NCBI GenBank assembly: GCA_963804425.1
Contig: CAWDQF010000001.1
Coordinates: 79,745 to 143,744 of the forward strand
Source: an uncultured Verrucomicrobiae bacterium
GTDB lineage: Bacteria; Verrucomicrobiota; Verrucomicrobiia; Chthoniobacterales; JAFAMB01
Length of the DNA stretch: 64,000 nucleotides
Direction of reading: 5' to 3'
Shown: positions 39,359-46,744 of the stretch, one piece after another
How positions within the stretch are numbered: position 1 is the stretch's first letter
How the letters are laid out: each line of letters begins with the position of its first letter
The notes under the pieces: model-generated
Seen by the model: the letters and a program-made list of their open reading frames with translations, nothing else
Told to the model about the DNA's origin: nothing
The model's database searches: none
Program-made: the position numbers and the translations under genes

Positions 39359-39564
39359 GGATTTTTGGGAGCGTTCCGACCGGCTAGTCGTTCGCCCCGG
39401 AATCCAAACCCTGTCCCAACTAGCTGCACACCGATTCGCCTTCTCGGCAAAATCTTGAATCGTGCGCGGCCAATTGCTAACCTCGGCGCCGATTTCCGAT
39501 AGAGTCTAAATTTTTGGCGCGCGTTCTCGTCTATCAACCAACTATTCCGATCCGGCAAAAAACT

Positions 39565-42500
39565 ATGGATCAAGCAACCACTCCCGCCGTGGGAAAATCG
39601 GAAATGCAGAGATTGCCGCACGCAGTGTTTATCTGCCATGCGAGCCAGGACAAGAAGGTGGCCGATGGCGCTTGCGCCGCCTTGGAATCGGATGGCGTCC
39701 GCTGTTGGATAGCTCCGCGCGATATGCTGGCGGGCCGACCCTATGCTGCCCAGATCACCGAAGCAATCCGTAGCGCGCAAATACTCGTGCTGATACTGAG
39801 CCGGGAATCGAACCGCTCCAAACAGGCGCTAAGGGAAGTAGAACGCGCCATTCATTGCCAATTGCAGGTGCTGACCTTCCGGGTCGAGCAAATTGAACCA
39901 AACGATGACTTGGCTTTCTTTCTCTCGGCCGATCATTGTGTCGAAGCGTCGTCTGGCCCGTCAGAAATCTACTGTCCGGCACTGTTGCGCCAGACGATAA
40001 CCCTTTTGCAGGCCAGACCGGAGATCGCAGAAGGGAGCGAACCTGCACCGCCAGAGATTTACGGTAATTTCCGAATCCTGCGTCGTTCGGACGGTTCTCT
40101 TTTCCGGTTAGGCAAGGGAGGTATGGGCGTCACCTGGAAGGCGATCGACGTTAATCTGGATCGTCCAGTCGCGTTGAAGGTCATCGGAGTCGATCTCTTA
40201 AACAGTACGCAGGCCCGCAGCCGTTTTCTAAGGGAGGCCCAAGCCGCCGCCAAGATGCATCATCCGCATGTCGCCACGGTTCACCATTTTGGGCAGGAGG
40301 GAGATGCCTACTTCTACGCCATGGAGTTTGTCGAAGGGGAAGACTTGGAACGCTACGTCGCTAGGCACGGACCACTCTCGCCTGCGATGGCGTTGCAGGT
40401 GGTGCTGCAGGTCGCGCAAGCCCTGGAAGCTGCCCATTCGTATCAGCTCATTCATAGGGACATCAAGCCGGCCAACATCATGGCCACCGTGAATCGAGCC
40501 GGGAGTTTGGAAGTCAAACTGGTCGATTTCGGTCTTGCTAAGGGCGCTGGGGCCAAAGACTTTGATATGGCGCGCATCACTCGGTCACAGGATTTTGTGG
40601 GCAGCCCAGCCTTTGCCAGCCCTGAGCAGTGCGAAATGGGAGAGCTGGATACGAGGTCAGACATCTACTCGCTTGGCGTCACCCTCTGGTATTTGCTCAC
40701 CGGGAAACGTCCGTTCACAGGAACCGTGGGCCAAGTCATGATCGCGCATGCCGTACAGCCCCCTCCGTTCGAACAGTTGAATGAGGTATCGGAGCCGGTG
40801 TTGGAGCTGCTCAAGCAAATGTTGGCCAAGAACCCGGAGGAGCGACCGCAGTCGCCGCAGGAATTGCAAACCGCGGTGGTAGCCGCGGCCGCTCGACTAG
40901 CGACGGAGTTCAATGCGGTACCGGAGCGAATTCCCGTGGAAGCGGCGCGAGAGGAGCTCCCGTCCGACCGCACATTTGAATGGGATGGAGCCGGTGAACC
41001 GGAACAGCTCTACACAATCGCCTCTCCGCTCTTCGATGGCTACCTGAGCCTCGAGCTGGGAAGTCTCGTGGGCGATCGCTACCGACTAGTCGAGGAGGAA
41101 CGAGAAGGCACAGGCGGCCGATTTTTCCTCGCTCAGGATGAAAAGCCAACCGGTAGTAAACCATTCCAGGTGGGGCTGAAAATAGTACATCCCGGGGTCA
41201 TAGCAGACCCCGGTCTGCTTGATCTGATGGAAAACGAACTCGGGGTGATCGGCAGATCGCCCCATCCGCACGTGGTCAAATACGTCGGTTTGGAACGGAA
41301 GTACCAAACTCCATTCATCATTAGGGAATGGGTCCACGGCTTTCTGATGTACGACCTGTTGCGGTGGCGTGGTTCTTTCCGGGCGGCTGAGCTCCAGATC
41401 TTACTCGAGCCATTGGCCGCTACTCTAGATTTCGTTTCTGGGCAAGGGTTCGGTCTAGTCGAAGTGAGTGTGCGCAAGATCCTCGTGGTATGCCCAGAGG
41501 ATTTGCATCCGGATCGCTTTGCGGACTTCGCTCGTCGCGATGTGCGCGAGTGGAATCACTGCACACTGAAGCTGAACCCTTTGAGTATCGCACCGCTACT
41601 CTATCGCAGGCGGGCCAATAGACCTCAGCAGACGCTCGTTCCTACCAGCCAGGTGCTGTCATTGACCCAGGCCGAAGCTGGCGTCCGCGGTATTAAAGTA
41701 GTCCGCCTCTACGGGCGGCTCGTGTACGAACTGTTGAGTGGACATGCTCCGGTGCGTGGCGACTCGCAAAGATACTCGCCGTTGTCGGAGTTGAACGAAG
41801 GGGGCAACGCGACGCTACGGAGCGCTTGCATTGAGGGCCGCCAATCGGAAGCTTTTCGCAGCTGCACGGAATTCTGGAATGCGTTAAAGGAGAACCTGGC
41901 AGCCCGGTCTTGCGCCTCCACCGTACCGGTATCTCCATCAACCATTTCTGCTCCGGCCGCGCCAGCGTCTTTGCCGCCCACACCGTCCGCGCCGACGTCG
42001 TCTCCTGCGGCCACGCCACCTCCGAAACGAAATCTGATCGTCGGATCGATTCTTGGCGGAGCGCTGATCATCGGGTTGGCGATTTTTGCTGCGATCCGCT
42101 TTGGTGGCACCGGATCAAGTCCTGCCTCGACGGCGACCCCCACACCGGTTCAAGAGATTTCTACACCAGTACCCACGCCTACGCCTGCAGCACCGGCGAC
42201 CACGCCTATACCATCGACGCCCACGCCCGTACCATCGACACCCACGCCTATACCATCGACGCCCACGCCCGTACCATCGACACCCGCGCCCGTACCATCG
42301 ACACCCGCGCCCGTACCATCGACACCCGCGCCCGTACCATCGACACCCGCGCCCGTACCATCGACACCCGCGCCCGTACCATCGACACCCGCGCCCGTAC
42401 CATCGACACCCGCGCCTATACCATCGACACCCGCGCCTATACCATCGACGCCCAGCCCAATACCACCGACCCCAGTAGTAGACCCGGTCCGACAAGCAGA

Positions 42501-42894
42501 GATTGCGGAGCAAGAGTTAGGGCAGGCTTGGTCGGCCCTTACGGAGGCGCAGCGGGACGCCATTCGACAAGAGGAGCGGGAATGGATTAAAATGAAAGAC
42601 AACACTCCGATTGCTGAGCGAGCTCAGGTCATTCGCGCACGAACTTCCTATCTTCAGAATCTTGCCCGAAATCAGAACAATACTAGGAGCTCCACAGATC
42701 CGGTCGGCGAGGTGCAAATCGCGGAGCAGGAATTGAATCAAGCTTGGCGGGCCTTAACCGAACGGCAGAGGGAGGCTATTCGACAGGACGAAAGGGAATG
42801 GATCAACATGAAAGATAGTACTCCGATCGCCAGGCGAGCACAGGTCATCCTGGCCAGAGCCGCGTATCTCCGGAATTTGGCTCGGAATCACTAA
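39565..42894 (+). CDS. TIR + Ser/Thr kinase + pseudokinase + TM + Pro-rich stalk + two LprI-like repeats
   Basis: VFICHASQD...CWIAPRD...REVERA (TIR); GKGGMG/VALK/HRDIKPAN/DFG; degenerate second kinase; LIVGSILGGALIIGLAIFAAI TM; duplicated C-terminal helical unit. Confidence 0.88.
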   Translation: MDQATTPAVGKSEMQRLPHAVFICHASQDKKVADGACAALESDGVRCWIAPRDMLAGRPYAAQITEAIRSAQILVLILSRESNRSKQALREVERAIHCQLQVLTFRVEQIEPNDDLAFFLSADHCVEASSGPSEIYCPALLRQTITLLQARPEIAEGSEPAPPEIYGNFRILRRSDGSLFRLGKGGMGVTWKAIDVNLDRPVALKVIGVDLLNSTQARSRFLREAQAAAKMHHPHVATVHHFGQEGDAYFYAMEFVEGEDLERYVARHGPLSPAMALQVVLQVAQALEAAHSYQLIHRDIKPANIMATVNRAGSLEVKLVDFGLAKGAGAKDFDMARITRSQDFVGSPAFASPEQCEMGELDTRSDIYSLGVTLWYLLTGKRPFTGTVGQVMIAHAVQPPPFEQLNEVSEPVLELLKQMLAKNPEERPQSPQELQTAVVAAAARLATEFNAVPERIPVEAAREELPSDRTFEWDGAGEPEQLYTIASPLFDGYLSLELGSLVGDRYRLVEEEREGTGGRFFLAQDEKPTGSKPFQVGLKIVHPGVIADPGLLDLMENELGVIGRSPHPHVVKYVGLERKYQTPFIIREWVHGFLMYDLLRWRGSFRAAELQILLEPLAATLDFVSGQGFGLVEVSVRKILVVCPEDLHPDRFADFARRDVREWNHCTLKLNPLSIAPLLYRRRANRPQQTLVPTSQVLSLTQAEAGVRGIKVVRLYGRLVYELLSGHAPVRGDSQRYSPLSELNEGGNATLRSACIEGRQSEAFRSCTEFWNALKENLAARSCASTVPVSPSTISAPAAPASLPPTPSAPTSSPAATPPPKRNLIVGSILGGALIIGLAIFAAIRFGGTGSSPASTATPTPVQEISTPVPTPTPAAPATTPIPSTPTPVPSTPTPIPSTPTPVPSTPAPVPSTPAPVPSTPAPVPSTPAPVPSTPAPVPSTPAPVPSTPAPIPSTPAPIPSTPSPIPPTPVVDPVRQAEIAEQELGQAWSALTEAQRDAIRQEEREWIKMKDNTPIAERAQVIRARTSYLQNLARNQNNTRSSTDPVGEVQIAEQELNQAWRALTERQREAIRQDEREWINMKDSTPIARRAQVILARAAYLRNLARNH
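42211..42462 (+). repeat. 12 x 21-bp in-frame tandem repeat (PSTPAPV)
   Basis: CCATCGACACCCGCGCCCGTA unit; six central copies identical. Confidence 0.92.
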
Positions 42895-43539
42895 AACTTA
42901 GTGGGCGCTAGTCGTTCGAGACAGCCCTGAAAGTGCGTTCCATGGCAGGCTGGAACGCGGATTTGGTAATCACATTGAATCTGGTCAACCGATGATTATG
43001 GCGCAATGGGAGCCTAGCATTGAAACGCGCATTCAGCGCTGATCGTTTGGATATGCCCATTCTTAGCCCTGCGGGCTAGGCTATCCTGAATCGCGACTTC
43101 GCCGCTGAAAAAACCTGTCCATCAAATCTGATCAAGCGAAGCCCGACAGGCCGTGAAGGGCCGGAAGCGTATTTTGCACCATTTTCCCAGCGCTGAAGTG
43201 CTGGGCTTCTATGAAGCCGACGTTGTCAAGCCTCGCCGCAAAAAGCTTTGTTTGAATGTTTTTAGTTAGTTTTCTGCGCAATCAGACAACAACCCACCTC
43301 TGGCCGGCTTTGGTGCTTGATCGGCGCGGTGTGAGGTACGAACACCGCAGCGATCAAACACCAAAGTTCGGTGACCTCCTTAAAGCGCGCGCTGCGCGCT
43401 AGGGAACTAGCTCTGATCGGCTAAAAGGTCTTTCTCTCGGGGGATTGGTTCGCTCCTTTTTTCTTTTTGTTGTCGACTCTGGAGCTTGCTCTTTTTGGTC
43501 TTCAGCCAACGTTTGCTGTCCCAACGCGAGCTTGATCAT

Positions 43540-43750
43540 GATTGCCCGGTTTAAGCTTCTATCGGTGGGAAGGCTCCTTCCTCACACGGTGATTTATGCA
43601 ATTGAGCATTCCAAGGGACAGCAACCAGCGGTCTCATCTACTTTTCGGGTTTTGACCCAAGCCCAGCATCAGACGCGCGCCGTTGCTGCCAAAAAGTCAC
43701 CTCAAGGTCGCTGCTTAAAATTCTACCTGCCCCAGGCTTCTGACTTTGCT
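43540..43750 (-). ncRNA. Putative bridge/seek RNA
   Basis: Stem-flanked internal loop carrying UGCUGGGCU and AAAAGUAG matching the target; second loop with AUAGAAG matching the donor junction; boundaries approximate. Confidence 0.7.
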
Positions 43751-44856
43751 CTAGGGCTTGGCTTGGAGGACTAAACTCAGTTTTTCAGCCGTGGTTTGTC
43801 CGCTGGCTAAACGCCATAAATCGATGGCTAAACGCCGGGCCGCTTTGACTACCAAGCGTCTCTTGGCGCGCTTGCTCTTTACTAAGCCAGCCCCCAGCTG
43901 GCGTACCGGTGGATAGTGGGGCTGCCAAATCATGAGCCGCCAGACCATCTCCACTAAGCTCCAGCGCACCATCCGGTTGCCACAGCGGTTGATCGAACCC
44001 TCTTTACCCCGGCCATCGCTCTGGTGGATGCCGGGACATAAGCCCGTATAGCTGGCGACTTGTCTGCGATTCTTAAAGCGCTCCCAGCCCTTCATCTCGT
44101 ATTCCAACACCGCCGCGCTGTAGGCCCCCACTCCCTTGGGTAAGATCGCCGGAGCCAGCGCTTCGATTCGCCGCCGCAACCCTTTTTGCTCCTCCTGAGC
44201 GCTCAACACCTTCTTGCGCCAAGCTTCTAACTGCTCTTTCATCCAGTCTTTGAGCCGGGCATCAGCGTTGAGCTCACACCACCCTTTGCCCTGCCACCAT
44301 CGAGCTCGCACTTCGATGCCTTGAGCACACAACAAGCCTTTACCGCGCCCCTCATAGCGGCTCCGATCGGCCATAATCTGACGATGATAGCGAATCAAGG
44401 CTCGTTTTTCTTCCTGTTTCACACTGGGCACCCCCACCACACTTAAGGCCTTGTGCTGACCCCTCAGATAGCGATCCAATTGATCGGTCAACTCTGCACC
44501 ATCGCGCCGATCGGTCTTTTGCTGCTTACCTCCTTGGCCCATCGCCTTGGGCGCTACCACCAGGTTCTTGACTCCCAGTTCCTCCAGCTGTCGATGTAAC
44601 CAGTAGCCGCTGGCTCCCGCTTCGTAACAGCTATGTATGCGCCAGCCCTCGGCCAACTTCTTCTCTACCCAAACCAAAAAGGCCTCATGACTCATCTTGC
44701 CCACCGCCTTGATCCGCCCGCCATCCTCCTGCATCGCTACGGTCACCTGCCGATAGTGCATATCCAGTCCCAACTTCAGGACTCGATCGCCATTGTGCTG
44801 CCCACTTGCTTGGTTGCCTTCACTGCCCGATCTTGTTTGGTATAGATATTATTCAT
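43751..44856 (-). CDS. IS110 family transposase/recombinase (apparent frameshift near 44801)
   Basis: LGLDMH, CYEAG, KTDRRD (DEDD), SYTGLCP-GIHQSDG catalytic Ser, GNRMVR; ATG at 44856 is one base out of frame. Confidence 0.93.
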
Positions 44857-45121
44857 AAAGCCGACAGTTTAGCAGCGGGTGCTGCTAGCTGTCGGCTCAT
44901 GTCATCTACCATCAATGAATCCCTTTGGAATCGAACTTCTCATCTCTGGTGAACCCACGCTATTGCCTCAGGTTTGATTTTGATCCGTCTTCAAAACGTC
45001 AAATCTTAACCCACTCACTAATGCATTTGGGTGAGCCCCAAAACCGACGGGGTAGAGAATTACTGCACATCAGGGTGCAGGTAGACGTGCTCGTTGAGCT
45101 GCAGCTTATAACTCGTTTCGA

Positions 45122-46744
45122 TCACAGTTTCGTGACCGGAGCGAATGACTTTGCCAGTATGGACGACATCATCGCCGAGCTTGGTATGACTGGCAGCATC
45201 TTGTTCGATCGTTTTGCCCCAAATAGCAGAACGCAACCGGACACAAAAACAACGATGAGTAGCGGCAGCGTATATCGAGGTTGCGCGTACGCGAAAACGC
45301 AACTCGCTAGATCCGCGATCGTTCCAACTGCGATGAAGCTAAGCGCAACGAGAAAAAGCTCGCGAGAGAGCCTTTGGCGAATCAGTCGCATGACCCCCAC
45401 CGAAACAAACAGGAAGCACCAAAGAACGATCGGTACGCCTTGCCAATGATTGATGAAGGGATCGCGATCCACGGCGGCCAGCATGGGTCGCGCATCTTTC
45501 AGTTGAAACATGGGCAGCCGCGGAAGATCACTCCAACGGGAGGGCAGCTTCTCGAGAAAACCCGCGAAAAGGAACGTTGCAAACGGCCCCGATCGTGCCA
45601 CTCGGTAATCGCTGGTTGGCGCCCAGGTGCGAACAAACTCTTTCCCTATGACCGCCAGCAACTTCGGGGGCGTGGCCTGGTAGAGGCATTGGGTTGCGCG
45701 CGAAATAATGCGATCCCTTTCCGCCTGGAGGTCCTCGCCGCTCGCACCCTGTTCCAAGAGGGCTCGCTCGATTACTTTCTCGCCACCGAGATGATACGAC
45801 CCGAACTTAAACTGTGCTTCGATTGCCAAACGGACGTTGACGTCGTCGGTCAGAGCTAAACCAGTAGCGAGGAATTTGGCGTTCTCGGCCGGAGAAAGCT
45901 GAGCGATGAGCGTCTCAAATCGGTCACTAAATGTCGCTCCATCCGTTGGGCGCTCGATAACCGCGAATTGTCTGCACAAAATCAAAACGAGACCTTTCTC
46001 AATTCCGCCGACGCTTAGACTGATCACCAGCGAAACGGCGGCGGTTCGCAGAAGCGGTTTCAGCTCGGTCCAATGTTTGCGCGCGCACAGCCAACGCGAA
46101 CCCAAGCAGATTGTGATAACGGGCAACCAAAGAAGCAGGATGCCATTCACCTTTCGCGAGCCGACCGCCAGCAACAGCGCAGCCGAATAGATAATCCAGT
46201 CTCGCCAACCGGCAGATCGAAGCAAGATGCGAATCCCGGCGGAAAAGACAATGATCCAACTGACAGCCGTCATCGCTTCGGATCCGGCGGTATGTGCAAA
46301 CGTATAAAAACTTGCTACCGAACCGAGTAGGACGGCGGCAATTCCGCGGGTGACATTAGACCACCCAACGGAAAATAGCAGATAGCGAAGAGCCAACCAG
46401 AGCCCAGCGTGTTGAAAGAAAATCAGCACCCAAACGGCGAGCGACGACGGATTTTGTTCACTAAAAATCGCCGGCGCGGTTCCATGCGTTAGCGTGTCGG
46501 TCAACCAGAAGGGGAGCCGGGCAAGGAAGCAGTAAATCGGCGGAGAATGTAATATGTTAAGGGAGCCGGGCGCGGCGATTAGCTGTGCGACTGCGTCGAC
46601 GTCCTTCCAGAACGGTTGATAACGAATGAAAAGCCAGATTGAAGGAACGACGACGGCAGCGAGTGGATGTTTACCTATCCATTCAAGGGCCAGCTCAAGA
46701 GCCCGGCGAGTATGCGATGAAAAAGACAGGAGCTTCTGGTGCAT
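45122..46744 (-). CDS. Multi-pass membrane protein (possibly GT-C-like)
   Basis: Many TM segments, N-terminal WKDVD, large periplasmic loop, C-terminal PRYTLPL. Confidence 0.65.
   Translation of the reverse strand: MHQKLLSFSSHTRRALELALEWIGKHPLAAVVVPSIWLFIRYQPFWKDVDAVAQLIAAPGSLNILHSPPIYCFLARLPFWLTDTLTHGTAPAIFSEQNPSSLAVWVLIFFQHAGLWLALRYLLFSVGWSNVTRGIAAVLLGSVASFYTFAHTAGSEAMTAVSWIIVFSAGIRILLRSAGWRDWIIYSAALLLAVGSRKVNGILLLWLPVITICLGSRWLCARKHWTELKPLLRTAAVSLVISLSVGGIEKGLVLILCRQFAVIERPTDGATFSDRFETLIAQLSPAENAKFLATGLALTDDVNVRLAIEAQFKFGSYHLGGEKVIERALLEQGASGEDLQAERDRIISRATQCLYQATPPKLLAVIGKEFVRTWAPTSDYRVARSGPFATFLFAGFLEKLPSRWSDLPRLPMFQLKDARPMLAAVDRDPFINHWQGVPIVLWCFLFVSVGVMRLIRQRLSRELFLVALSFIAVGTIADLASCVFAYAQPRYTLPLLIVVFVSGCVLLFGAKRSNKMLPVIPSSAMMSSILAKSFAPVTKL

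What the first reader, a model, noticed from the sequence alone, without database searches (positions are those of the whole stretch)
43186..44925. IS1111-type element with a readable RNA guide for its REP-like target
Seen: removing the element restores CCCAGCGCTGAAGTGCTGGG-CT-ACCATC, a REP-like palindrome cut at a CT core. Sub-terminal IRs sit 7 nt (including the core) and 3 nt from the ends. Downstream of the recombinase, the minus-strand transcript reads UGCUGGGCU (43668-60; identical to left target plus core, 9/9), a GGGU/ACCC hairpin, then AAAAGUAG (43645-38; its GUAG is complementary to core plus right target CTAC), closed by a GTCT/AGAC stem. A second loop carries AUAGAAG (43562-56), complementary to the donor junction CTTCTAT; a left donor guide is not clear. 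Known: this is the layout of IS110/IS1111 bridge/seek RNAs. Inference: a programmable RNA-guided recombinase with its own target specificity.
Basis: partly seen in the sequence, partly recalled or inferred. Interest (0 to 1): 0.85.

Follow-up and report, generated by a model that had tools for sequence, protein, structure and literature searches.

The report
RNA-guided IS1111 element in REP repeat
This is a 1.7-kb jumping gene of a known RNA-guided kind, carrying its own guide RNA that matches the palindromic genome repeat it lands in; the reading is right, but it is a new example of a mechanism described in 2024.

Summary
The element is window 43208-44907: 1700 bp, no duplication, CT core. 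The genome holds 5 full copies plus broken and miniature derivatives, all at the same point of a hairpin repeat. A soil-metagenome contig joins 43205 to 44906 and skips exactly 1700 bp, so an empty site exists.

The recombinase (minus strand) matches IS110/IS1111 families. Downstream lies a conserved RNA scaffold with two variable segments, 43668-43660 and 43644-43638. In relatives from other genomes (68-87% aa identity) these covary with the flanks. The 5' guide matches its own flank 9/9 in 7 of 8 loci. The 3' guide matches 7/7 in 5 of 10. A second loop pairs with the right end, and that pairing covaries with a distant clade. The left-donor guide stays unclear.

The window copy has a 5' frameshift absent from its four full-length sisters, so it probably moves only in trans.

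The target repeat matches Rfam Acido-Lenti-1 (66 genomic hits over threshold). Some of those repeats flank RAYT-like genes.

Verdict: a real, well-supported new member of a known kind.

The parts
43208..44907 (-). Whole IS1111-type element, 1700 bp, counting one copy of the CT (AG on the coding strand) core
   Evidence: Copy ends in own genome. A metagenome contig skips exactly 1700 bp between 43205 and 44906, with 2 nt that fit either side.
43186..43207 (+). Left half of the target: REP-like hairpin CCCAGCGCTGAAGTGCTGGG plus core CT
   Evidence: Weak Rfam RF01687 match of 21.7 bits, below the gathering score of 37.
44908..44913 (+). Right half of the target (ACCATC). Only AC next to the core fits the 3' guide at this copy.
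43751..44773 (-). DEDD/Tnp recombinase ORF as it stands in the window: 340 aa from a TTG placed 2 residues before the first catalytic Asp
   Evidence: Sister copies encode 367-368 aa from an upstream ATG.
44840..44856 (-). Upstream ATG (44856-44854) and the frameshift zone. The window copy has two extra T (44848, 44842) against two sisters, and lacks a G near 44840 against three other copies, so the ATG is out of frame.
44859..44900 (-). Left-end sub-terminal repeat (ATGAGCCGAC, 44900-44891) forming a hairpin with an inner copy (CUGUCGGCU, 44867-44859)
43619..43696 (-). Target-binding loop module: outer stem, long stem CAGCAACGGCGCGCGUCU / AGACCGCUGGUUGCUG, and an internal loop holding both guides
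   Evidence: Consensus fold of 8 relatives; one compensatory pair (C-G in 6, U-A in 2)
43660..43668 (-). 5' target guide UGCUGGGCU. It is identical to the window-left target plus core, and pairs with the opposite strand.
   Evidence: Matches its own flank 9/9 in 7 of 8 relatives' loci with a readable flank
43647..43658 (-). Hairpin GGGU-CAAA-ACCC between the two target guides
43636..43644 (-). 3' target guide AAAGUAG (43644-43638), complementary to core plus right target CTACTTT. The following AU (43637-36) is complementary to the last bases of the element's window-right end, as a handshake guide would be.
   Evidence: The handshake concept is taken from PMC11208158 (passages read).
43555..43562 (-). 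Right-donor guide AUAGAAG plus handshake C, complementary to the junction G-CT-TCTAT
   Evidence: It covaries with a distant clade, which has AUAGCAGG against the end CATAGC|AG|G.
43568..43581 (-). Hairpin of the donor-binding region (GGAAGG-AG-CCUUCC). The stem sequence differs in relatives but still pairs.
43588..43593 (-). Degenerate candidate left-donor guide AUCACC. It lies at the position homologous to GUCAU / UCAACU in distant relatives.
   Evidence: Only 4 of 6 can pair here, so it is not established.
43304..43373 (-). Long, nearly perfect hairpin in the distal non-coding region, kept in the miniature derivative. Role unknown.
43211..43229 (-). Right-end sub-terminal repeat (GUCGGCUUCAU, 43221-43211) and a perfect TTGACA (43229-43224) 22 nt from the end

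Best explanation
Window 43208-44907 is one copy of an IS1111-group (IS110 family) insertion sequence. Its serine/DEDD recombinase is aimed by an RNA made from the non-coding region downstream of the gene.

The RNA carries a target-binding loop. Its 5' guide UGCUGGGCU pairs with one strand of the left target plus the CT core. Its 3' guide AAAGUAG pairs with the other strand of the core plus the right target. Two further bases (AU) can pair with the element's own end after strand exchange.

A second, multi-loop region carries AUAGAAG-C, which pairs with the other element end plus the first target base.

The element therefore inserts, without duplication and in one orientation, after GGGCT at the foot of a REP-like hairpin. 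About 134 such empty sites exist in this genome. G and U at the two variable guide positions would let one guide pair with all four repeat variants through G:T and U:G wobbles.

The window copy itself has a frameshift at the start of the gene. It probably moves only with recombinase supplied by the four intact full-length copies.

Shown: anatomy, copies, empty site, guide-target covariation. Inferred: RNA expression, RNA-protein complex, wobble tolerance, trans-mobilisation.
For: Protein: Pfam PF01548 and PF02371. NCBIfam NF033542, 'IS110 family RNA-guided transposase', scores 144.1 bits against a cut-off of 140 on a sister copy. The D, E, D, D residues and the Ser of the GL-P----S motif are kept in the rows of a 16-row alignment that cover them; the L027 row lacks the N-terminal third.

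Copies: 5 full copies, 1 split by another IS, 2 deletion derivatives and 2 partial ends. All 8 left flanks end in a hairpin plus (G)GGCT. Of 10 right flanks, 9 start with AC.

Empty site: one contig of run X6 (243 nt, 118 nt on the shorter side) joins 43205 to 44906.

Conserved scaffold with variable guide segments in relatives at 68-87% aa identity.

5' guide against its own right flank: 9/9 in 7 of 8 loci and 8/9 in 1. Cross-type matches are 4-8/9.

3' guide against its own left flank: 7/7 in 5 of 10 loci, 6/7 in 2, 5/7 in 2, 4/7 in 1.

One metagenome-assembled genome holds two guide variants whose left flanks match their own 3' guides: L021/L022 against L023, plus the L026 flank, whose own guide region is not held.

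Stem covariation: C-G to U-A at one pair.

Donor loop: the window clade has AUAGAAGC with the end CATAGA|AG|C. Distant relatives carry GAUAGCAGG, and a readable end CATAGC|AG|G was found in 6 of them (L030-L033, L035, L037).

The guide order (top-strand match 5' of bottom-strand match, in the gene's orientation) and the 7-nt/3-nt end extensions agree with PMC11187229 (sections 7, 9).

Empty candidate sites: 134 for T[GA]C[TC]GGGCTAC.
Against: No RNA data: no RNA run was listed, so transcription, processing and protein binding are untested.

No sigma-70-like promoter in the integrated element (0 found). The circle junction has a perfect -35 but only a weak -10.

No clear left-donor guide.

The fold energy of the 281-nt guide region is not unusual (z = -1.56).

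The window copy's own right flank fits the 3' guide at only 5 of 7 positions, and its gene is frameshifted.

The relatives are few and related: 4 guide types on each side. The covariation therefore rests on a handful of independent events.
Confidence: 0.87

Rival explanations
1. It is a seekRNA-only system. The RNA recognises only the target, and the target-derived flanks during excision. The element ends are recognised by the protein through the sub-terminal repeats and the invariant AGATGACATG box. On this view the 'donor loop' match is not a working guide.
For: For ISEc11 an 82-nt RNA holding only the target matches sufficed for transposition (PMC11187229, section 10). The left end AGATGACAT is unchanged in 7 of the 8 distant loci (37-48% aa identity), and L029 showed no match. 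In the close relatives L024 carries AGATGGTAT instead. No convincing left-donor guide was found.
Against: AUAGAAGC sits in a conserved loop in the same geometry as the 3' target guide. It changes together with the right end and the first flank base between two clades. Durrant et al. report donor-binding nucleotides in multi-loops for many IS1111 elements (PMC11208160, passage read).
Confidence: 0.25
2. The matches between the non-coding region and the target are relics or chance, for example captured target sequence. Target choice would then be made by the protein reading the hairpin.
For: REP hairpins are structured DNA that proteins can read. GCTTCTAT alone is not rare in the window (38 of 100 shuffles gave 2 or more).
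Against: The two matches are split, lie on opposite strands, overlap at the core and flank a hairpin inside a conserved stem. They change in step with flanks in other genomes, including a target type (AG|CGCCATT) in which I saw no hairpin by eye (not tested by folding).
Confidence: 0.04
3. This particular copy is an inert fossil. The frameshift and the poorly matching right flank mean it will not move again, even in trans.
For: The ATG is out of frame only in this copy. The right flank ACCATC matches the 3' guide only at the core plus AC. For ISEc11, both donor flanks had to match the target for excision (PMC11187229, section 7).
Against: Ends, repeats and RNA gene are intact, and the guides are identical to those of the sister copies. 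In IS621 the right target guide pairs with only the core plus 2 nt (PMC11208158), which this flank provides. A 435-bp derivative lacking both gene and RNA lies in a proper target site, which suggests that trans action occurs.
Confidence: 0.3

Closest known systems
IS1111-group elements with seekRNA (ISEc11, ISPa11, ISKpn4; Siddiquee et al. 2024, PMC11187229)
   Same: DEDD plus PF02371 recombinase. Sub-terminal inverted repeats with 7-nt and 3-nt extensions. A long non-coding region downstream of the gene. Two short target matches on opposite strands, the top-strand match 5' of the bottom-strand match. No target duplication. A REP target, as for ISPa11. Natural re-direction among relatives, as for ISEc11 and ISXne4.
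   Different: The host lineage differs: the relatives carry Verrucomicrobiota and Acidobacteriota labels. The protein is longer (367-368 aa) because of a poorly conserved N-terminal extension. The non-coding region is much longer (543 nt) and has an extra long hairpin. The target is a different repeat family. No experiment has been done on this element.
IS621 bridge RNA (Durrant et al. 2024, PMC11208160; Hiraizumi et al. 2024, PMC11208158)
   Same: The loop layout is stem, 9-nt guide ending in the core, hairpin, shorter guide starting at the core, then two handshake bases. The core is CT. Guides pair with opposite strands. A G:T non-canonical pair is seen in the IS621 structure. There is a second loop for the donor.
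   Different: The RNA lies downstream of the gene instead of upstream. Relative to the gene, the recombination site is read in the opposite orientation. The donor region is a multi-loop with only one clear guide. The sub-terminal repeats are long.
ISPpu9 / ISPpu10 of Pseudomonas putida (PMC12288879, abstract only read)
   Same: IS110-family elements inserted in REP sequences, with an RNA gene downstream of the transposase and partial modules elsewhere in the genome.
   Different: In ISPpu9 the downstream Ssr9 RNA was not required for transposition. Here the downstream RNA carries covarying guides. No free-standing RNA module was found in this genome.
Rfam RF01687 Acido-Lenti-1 RNA motif (Weinberg et al. 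2010, PMC2864571)
   Same: The target repeat has the same two-hairpin layout. The genome holds 66 matches over the gathering score. The element inserts between GGCU and A of the model consensus.
   Different: The motif was filed as a probable non-coding RNA. Here it behaves as a dispersed DNA repeat, and some copies flank Y1-transposase (RAYT-like) genes in inverted orientation. The sub-family the element uses scores lower than the top hits.

Membership tests
IS110 family, IS1111 group | N-terminal DEDD (RuvC-like) domain plus C-terminal Transposase_20 domain | tested here: met
   PF01548 E = 4.7e-07 and PF02371 E = 2.2e-16. NF033542 scores 144.1 bits against a cut-off of 140.
IS110 family, IS1111 group | Catalytic D, E, D, D and the Ser of the GL-P----S(T)G motif (motif as written in PMC11187229, section 6) | tested here: met
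   GLD, YEAG, KTDxxD and GLCPGIHQS are conserved in the rows of the 16-row alignment that cover them (L027 lacks the N-terminal third). The residue after Ser is D here, not G.
IS110 family, IS1111 group | Sub-terminal inverted repeats with a 7-bp extension at the left end and a 3-bp extension at the right end | tested here: met
   AGATGAC|ATGAGCCGAC and GTCGGCTTCAT|AGA in the gene's orientation
IS110 family, IS1111 group | The long non-coding region lies downstream of the transposase gene | tested here: met
   543 nt downstream against 51 nt upstream of the ATG
IS110 family, IS1111 group | Site- and orientation-specific insertion without target duplication | tested here: met
   8 left and 10 right flanks. 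The empty-site contig skips 1700 bp with a 2-nt overlap.
Bridge RNA / seekRNA | Two guide segments in one internal loop around a hairpin, pairing with opposite strands of the target and overlapping at the core | tested here: met
   43668-43660 and 43644-43638, around the hairpin at 43658-43647, inside a conserved stem
Bridge RNA / seekRNA | Guides covary with the natural target | tested here: met
   5' guide 9/9 in 7 of 8 loci; 3' guide 7/7 in 5 of 10 loci. There are four guide types on each side.
Bridge RNA / seekRNA | Donor-binding loop with both a left and a right donor guide | tested here: inconclusive
   The right-donor guide plus handshake base is supported. The left-donor guide is only a degenerate candidate. 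The left end is nearly invariant across the family (one close relative, L024, differs at two bases), so covariation could not be tested properly.
Bridge RNA / seekRNA | The RNA is transcribed and bound by the recombinase | not testable with these tools
   No RNA run was listed for this sequence.
Bridge RNA / seekRNA | A promoter is rebuilt at the circle junction | tested here: inconclusive
   A perfect TTGACA lies 22 nt from the right end. The best -10 candidates match 3 of 6 positions at spacers of 17 or 19.
REP / RAYT repeat (target) | Many dispersed extragenic palindromic copies | tested here: met
   123 RF01687 matches at E <= 0.01 among 150 scored candidates, 66 of them over the gathering score. 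134 sites fit the guide pattern.
REP / RAYT repeat (target) | Inverted copies flank a Y1 (RAYT) transposase gene | tested here: inconclusive
   Met for two other sub-families, at C3:699573-699911 and C4:8519-8725. Not found for the sub-family that the element targets.
Rfam RF01687 Acido-Lenti-1 (target) | Score at or above the gathering score of 37 bits | tested here: inconclusive
   The interrupted site scores 21.7 bits and a neighbouring intact repeat at 43062-43106 scores 28.1 bits. Sites with the element removed could not be scored, because no Infernal run on joined sequence was available.

The most novel reading that the evidence does not exclude
[quoted passage not shown] It is a REP-type DNA repeat spread by RAYT-like Y1 transposases. 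It also serves as the landing pad for a clade of RNA-guided IS1111 elements in Verrucomicrobiota and Acidobacteriota. The guide carries G and U at the repeat's two polymorphic positions, so that one RNA reaches all four repeat variants by wobble pairing.
Probability: 0.5. Interest if true: 0.5.

Novelty: new member of a known kind. Interest (0 to 1): 0.4.

Why it matters
The mechanism (bridge/seek RNA-guided recombination by IS110/IS1111 elements) was published in 2024. Bridge RNAs were predicted for 93% of catalogued IS1111 elements (PMC11208160). The main claim therefore adds an example rather than a principle.

The example is unusually clean. It offers a natural series of four guide types on each side. 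The 5' types match their flanks exactly wherever a flank could be read, and the common 3' types match in most loci. One genome bin holds two guide variants. There is an empty site for the window's own copy. The family comes from little-studied soil phyla.

It also offers material for three open points in the IS1111 group:
- how the left end is recognised when no clear RNA guide exists;
- whether G:T and U:G wobbles widen the target range;
- what the long extra hairpin does.

The side result, that Acido-Lenti-1 looks like a REP/RAYT repeat and an IS target, would give a function to an orphan Rfam family.

Tried and rejected
Rfam search of 42000-46000 at E <= 1: no family matched the non-coding region. 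The only hits were two sub-threshold Acido-Lenti-1 matches in the flank and a spurious mir-971 match.

PDB sequence search with the intact sister protein: no match at E <= 0.01.

Fold energy: the guide region alone is not unusually stable (z = -1.56). The whole non-coding region gives z = -4.05, driven by the long hairpin.

Search for a left-donor guide by scanning the whole sense strand for pairing with the left end, wobbles allowed: nothing convincing in the loop. Candidates seen:
- CGUGU (43588-84) could pair with ACATG of the left end. The one relative with a changed left end (L024, GTATG) stays wobble-compatible. The segment does not reach the core.
- AUCACC (43593-88) lies at the homologous position of better matches in distant relatives.

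AGGUGAC at 43702-43696 (AGAUGAC in L017 and L023, AGAUGAA in L019, L020, L021, L022 and L027, AGAAUGAA in L024) copies the left-end start and lies just 5' of the RNA scaffold. I considered it as an internal end for a separate RNA module, as in ISPpu9. No free-standing module was found in the genome.

Promoter scans: none in the integrated element, and only a weak -10 at the junction.

RNA evidence: no RNA holder listed. The circle junction was not seen in the contigs laid. A second joint in run X1 (43184 to 44911, with 25 other letters between, shorter side 23, depth 2.4) is too weak to use.

My first regex for repeats near the Y1 genes found nothing because the pattern was faulty. I used the coordinates instead and read the sequences.

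Supplementary files were not opened. Additional File 1 of PMC2864571 may describe Acido-Lenti-1 further. The supplementary tables of PMC11208160 and the database of the 2026 preprint may already list this element family.

Searches behind 'not in print': 'Acido-Lenti-1' found 6 papers, 5 of them listed. None names the motif in its title or abstract. I read passages in two of them, and neither links it to REP elements or insertion sequences.
Full report
**The thing itself**

The hairpin CCCAGCGCTGAAGTGCTGGG (43186-43205) is followed by CT and then by the element. The element ends in ...GTCGGCTCATGTCAT-CT (44906-07) and is followed by ACCATC.

Counting one CT, the element is window 43208-44907, 1700 bp. 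The minus strand carries a 340-aa ORF (43751-44773) that matches Pfam DEDD_Tnp_IS110 and Transposase_20.

The inverted repeat ATGA(A)GCCGAC / GTCGGCTCAT lies 3 nt from the window-left end and 7 nt (core included) from the window-right end. In the gene's orientation this gives the 7-nt left and 3-nt right extensions that PMC11187229 (section 7) gives for the IS1111 group.

**Copies and boundaries**

The window's genome (12 contigs, 5.5 Mb) holds the following:
- 5 full copies at 97-100% identity;
- one copy split by a 438-aa IS256-like transposase gene;
- a 435-bp derivative made of the two ends only;
- a rearranged derivative;
- two partial right ends.

All 8 left flanks end in a hairpin followed by (G)GGCT: TACCGGGCT four times, TACCGGCT once, TGCCGGGCT once and TGCTGGGCT twice. 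Of the 10 right flanks, 9 begin with AC: ACTAT four, ACTTT three, ACTAA one, ACCAT one. One begins ATATT.

A contig of a soil-metagenome run from another study (X6; 243 nt, depth 6.16, 118 nt on the shorter side) joins 43205 directly to 44906. It skips 1700 bases, and 2 letters fit either side. This is the empty site of the window's own copy. It fixes the boundaries and shows that there is no duplication.

**The gene**

The four other full copies and the split copy have an ATG 51 nt inside the left end, in frame with the ORF. It gives 367-368 aa in the four full copies. In the window copy this ATG is out of frame because of small indels at 44840-44848, which leaves a TTG two residues before the first catalytic Asp.

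Relatives in other genomes also carry an upstream extension.

The intact sister protein passes NCBIfam NF033542, 'IS110 family RNA-guided transposase' (144.1 bits against a cut-off of 140). It keeps the D, E, D, D residues and the motif Ser.

**The RNA**

A scan of one genome per species found 11 related loci at 68-87% aa identity. They lie in assemblies labelled Verrucomicrobiota, Verrucomicrobiae, Chthoniobacterales, Acidobacteriaceae and Acidiferrales.

Their downstream regions align with the window's from the stop codon to about 43490. The scaffold is almost invariant...UGGCAGCAACGGCGCGCGUCU-[variable]-GCUUGGG..CCCG-[variable]-AGAU(G/U)AGACCGCU.GUUGCUG....

The consensus fold places them on the two sides of an internal loop around a hairpin, closed by a 17-pair stem. 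One pair of that stem changes from C-G to U-A in two sequences.

**Covariation with the target**

All of this is read in the gene's orientation.

The 5' guide is the reverse complement of AG plus the 7 bases that follow the right end:

| Guide | Flank |
|---|---|
| TGCTGGGCT | AG CCCAGCA |
| TACTGGGCT | AG CCCAGTA |
| CCCTGGGCT | AG CCCAGGG |
| AATGGCGCT | AG CGCCATT |

It matches 9/9 in 7 of the 8 loci with a readable flank, and 8/9 in the eighth. Cross-type matches are 4-8/9.

The 3' guide equals the 5 bases before the left end plus AG. AACTTAG and GATTCAG match 7/7 in 5 of 10 loci. The remaining loci give 6/7 twice, 5/7 twice and 4/7 once. The window family's AAAGTAG matches 7/7 at 3 of the 10 right ends in its own genome.

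One genome bin carries two guide variants (L021/L022 and L023). In each, the left flank matches its own 3' guide, and a fourth locus of that bin (L026, guide region not held) has the L023-type flank. L023 has lost its right end, so its 5' guide could not be checked there.

The relatives are few and related, so the independent events number perhaps a dozen base changes. All of those that could be checked against a flank are mirrored in the DNA. I take this as strong evidence that these are working guides.

The order matches the IS1111 arrangement in PMC11187229 (section 9): the segment that pairs with the top strand lies 5' of the one that pairs with the bottom strand. Read in the window's plus orientation, the layout is that of the IS621 target-binding loop: stem, 9-nt left guide ending in the CT core, hairpin, then the right guide starting at the core (PMC11208158).

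**Handshake and donor loop**

After the 3' target guide come AU(GA). These are complementary to the last bases of the window-right end, so AAAGUAGAUGA is complementary to the integrated junction TCAT-CT-ACTTT.

In the second region, AUAGAAG-C (43562-43555) is complementary to G-CT-TCTAT, the other junction. On its own this 8-mer is not rare. But distant relatives (37-48% aa identity) carry GAUAGCAGG at the homologous place, and in 6 of them a right end CATAGC followed by AG and G could be read. The window clade has GAUAGAAGC and CATAGA-AG-C.

So the guide base and the handshake base both change with the DNA. This supports a right-donor guide with a handshake base, in the sense of PMC11208158.

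A left-donor guide is not established. The left end AGATGACAT is the same in 7 of the 8 distant loci (L029 showed no match), and among the close relatives only L024 differs (AGATGGTAT), so covariation could not be tested properly. At the homologous loop position:
- the window family has AUCACC (4 of 6 can pair);
- some distant relatives have UCAACU or GUCAU (5 of 6 and 5 of 5).

**The target**

The flank hairpin, and a neighbouring repeat at 43062-43106, give sub-threshold matches to Rfam RF01687, Acido-Lenti-1. The genome holds 123 matches at E <= 0.01 among 150 scored candidates, 66 of them over the gathering score.

There are several sub-families. The element uses the one reading CCCGGCACTTCGTACCGGGCT|ACTATC...GTCCC..GGGAC. 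It does not use the commonest one, CCTAGGGCT..GCCCTAGGCTATC.

The pattern T[GA]C[TC]GGGCTAC has 134 empty sites: TACC 90, TGCC 26, TGCT 13, TACT 5.

The guide has G and U at the two variable places. It could therefore pair with all four variants by G:T and U:G wobbles. This is an inference, and the observed insertions in three of the four variants are consistent with it.

Two Y1-transposase genes are flanked by inverted RF01687 repeats. One has the HVH and GYG motifs that I recall as typical of RAYT proteins. The repeat family therefore looks like a REP/RAYT system. [quoted passage not shown]

**What is not shown**

- No RNA data exist for this sequence.
- No promoter-like site lies in the integrated element. 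The junction offers a perfect -35 but a poor -10.
- The role of the long hairpin at 43304-43373 is unknown. It is kept in the miniature derivative and conserved in relatives.

**Comparison and verdict**

This is a member of the IS1111 group of the IS110 family, with a bridge/seek RNA. All structural membership features tested were met, except the left-donor guide and the junction promoter, which are inconclusive. Expression could not be tested.

It works like ISEc11 and ISPa11 (seekRNA) and like IS621 (bridge RNA). Its RNA lies downstream, and the site orientation is reversed relative to the gene. It is a new member of a known kind.

Interest is moderate. It is a clean natural reprogramming series from soil phyla, a possible asymmetric way of reading the donor, and a likely identity for an orphan Rfam motif.

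Noticed in passing
G000:C3:699381-700107, G000:C4:8326-8968, and window 43062-43106: Rfam Acido-Lenti-1 (RF01687) repeats flank Y1-transposase (RAYT-like) genes in inverted orientation at two loci. The genome has 66 hits over the gathering score. The motif behaves as a REP-type repeat with several sub-families.
   Followed up: partly
window 39514-42894 (+): A 1126-aa ORF next to the element. By eye it reads as an N-terminal TIR-like segment, a Ser/Thr kinase core (HRDIKPANIM) and a long tandem PAPVPSTPA-type proline/threonine repeat. It was not run against any family library.
   Followed up: no
G000:C4:43405-44804: One copy of the element is split by a 1.4-kb insertion that encodes a 438-aa transposase. 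By eye it looks IS256-like, but it was not scanned. A similar end sequence occurs inside the rearranged derivative on C7.
   Followed up: partly
window 43333-43341, equivalent in G000:C3:611236-612933: In the C3 copy the loop of the long hairpin is replaced by its reverse complement (7 changed bases), so the loop has been flipped. This explains the self-match on the opposite strand.
   Followed up: no
window 43696-43702 (-): AGGUGAC copies the first bases of the left end and sits just 5' of the RNA scaffold. The relatives have AGAUGAC (L017, L023), AGAUGAA (L019, L020, L021, L022, L027) or AGAAUGAA (L024). It is unexplained. It might be a processing signal or an internal end.
   Followed up: partly
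L021, L022, L023, L026 (one metagenome-assembled genome): Two variants of the element with different guide pairs coexist in one genome bin. For each, the left flank matches its own 3' guide; L026 holds only the L023-type flank, and L023 has lost its right end.
   Followed up: partly
L017 (Acidiferrales label) against the window's genome: An element at 87% aa identity, inserted in the same type of two-hairpin repeat, sits in an assembly labelled as a different phylum from most other relatives. Either both element and repeat have been transferred, or the contig was binned wrongly.
   Followed up: no
G000:C12:265846-266280: A 435-bp miniature derivative that keeps 214 bp of the right end (with the long hairpin) and 228 bp of the left end, lacks the guide region, and lies in a proper target site.
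   Followed up: partly
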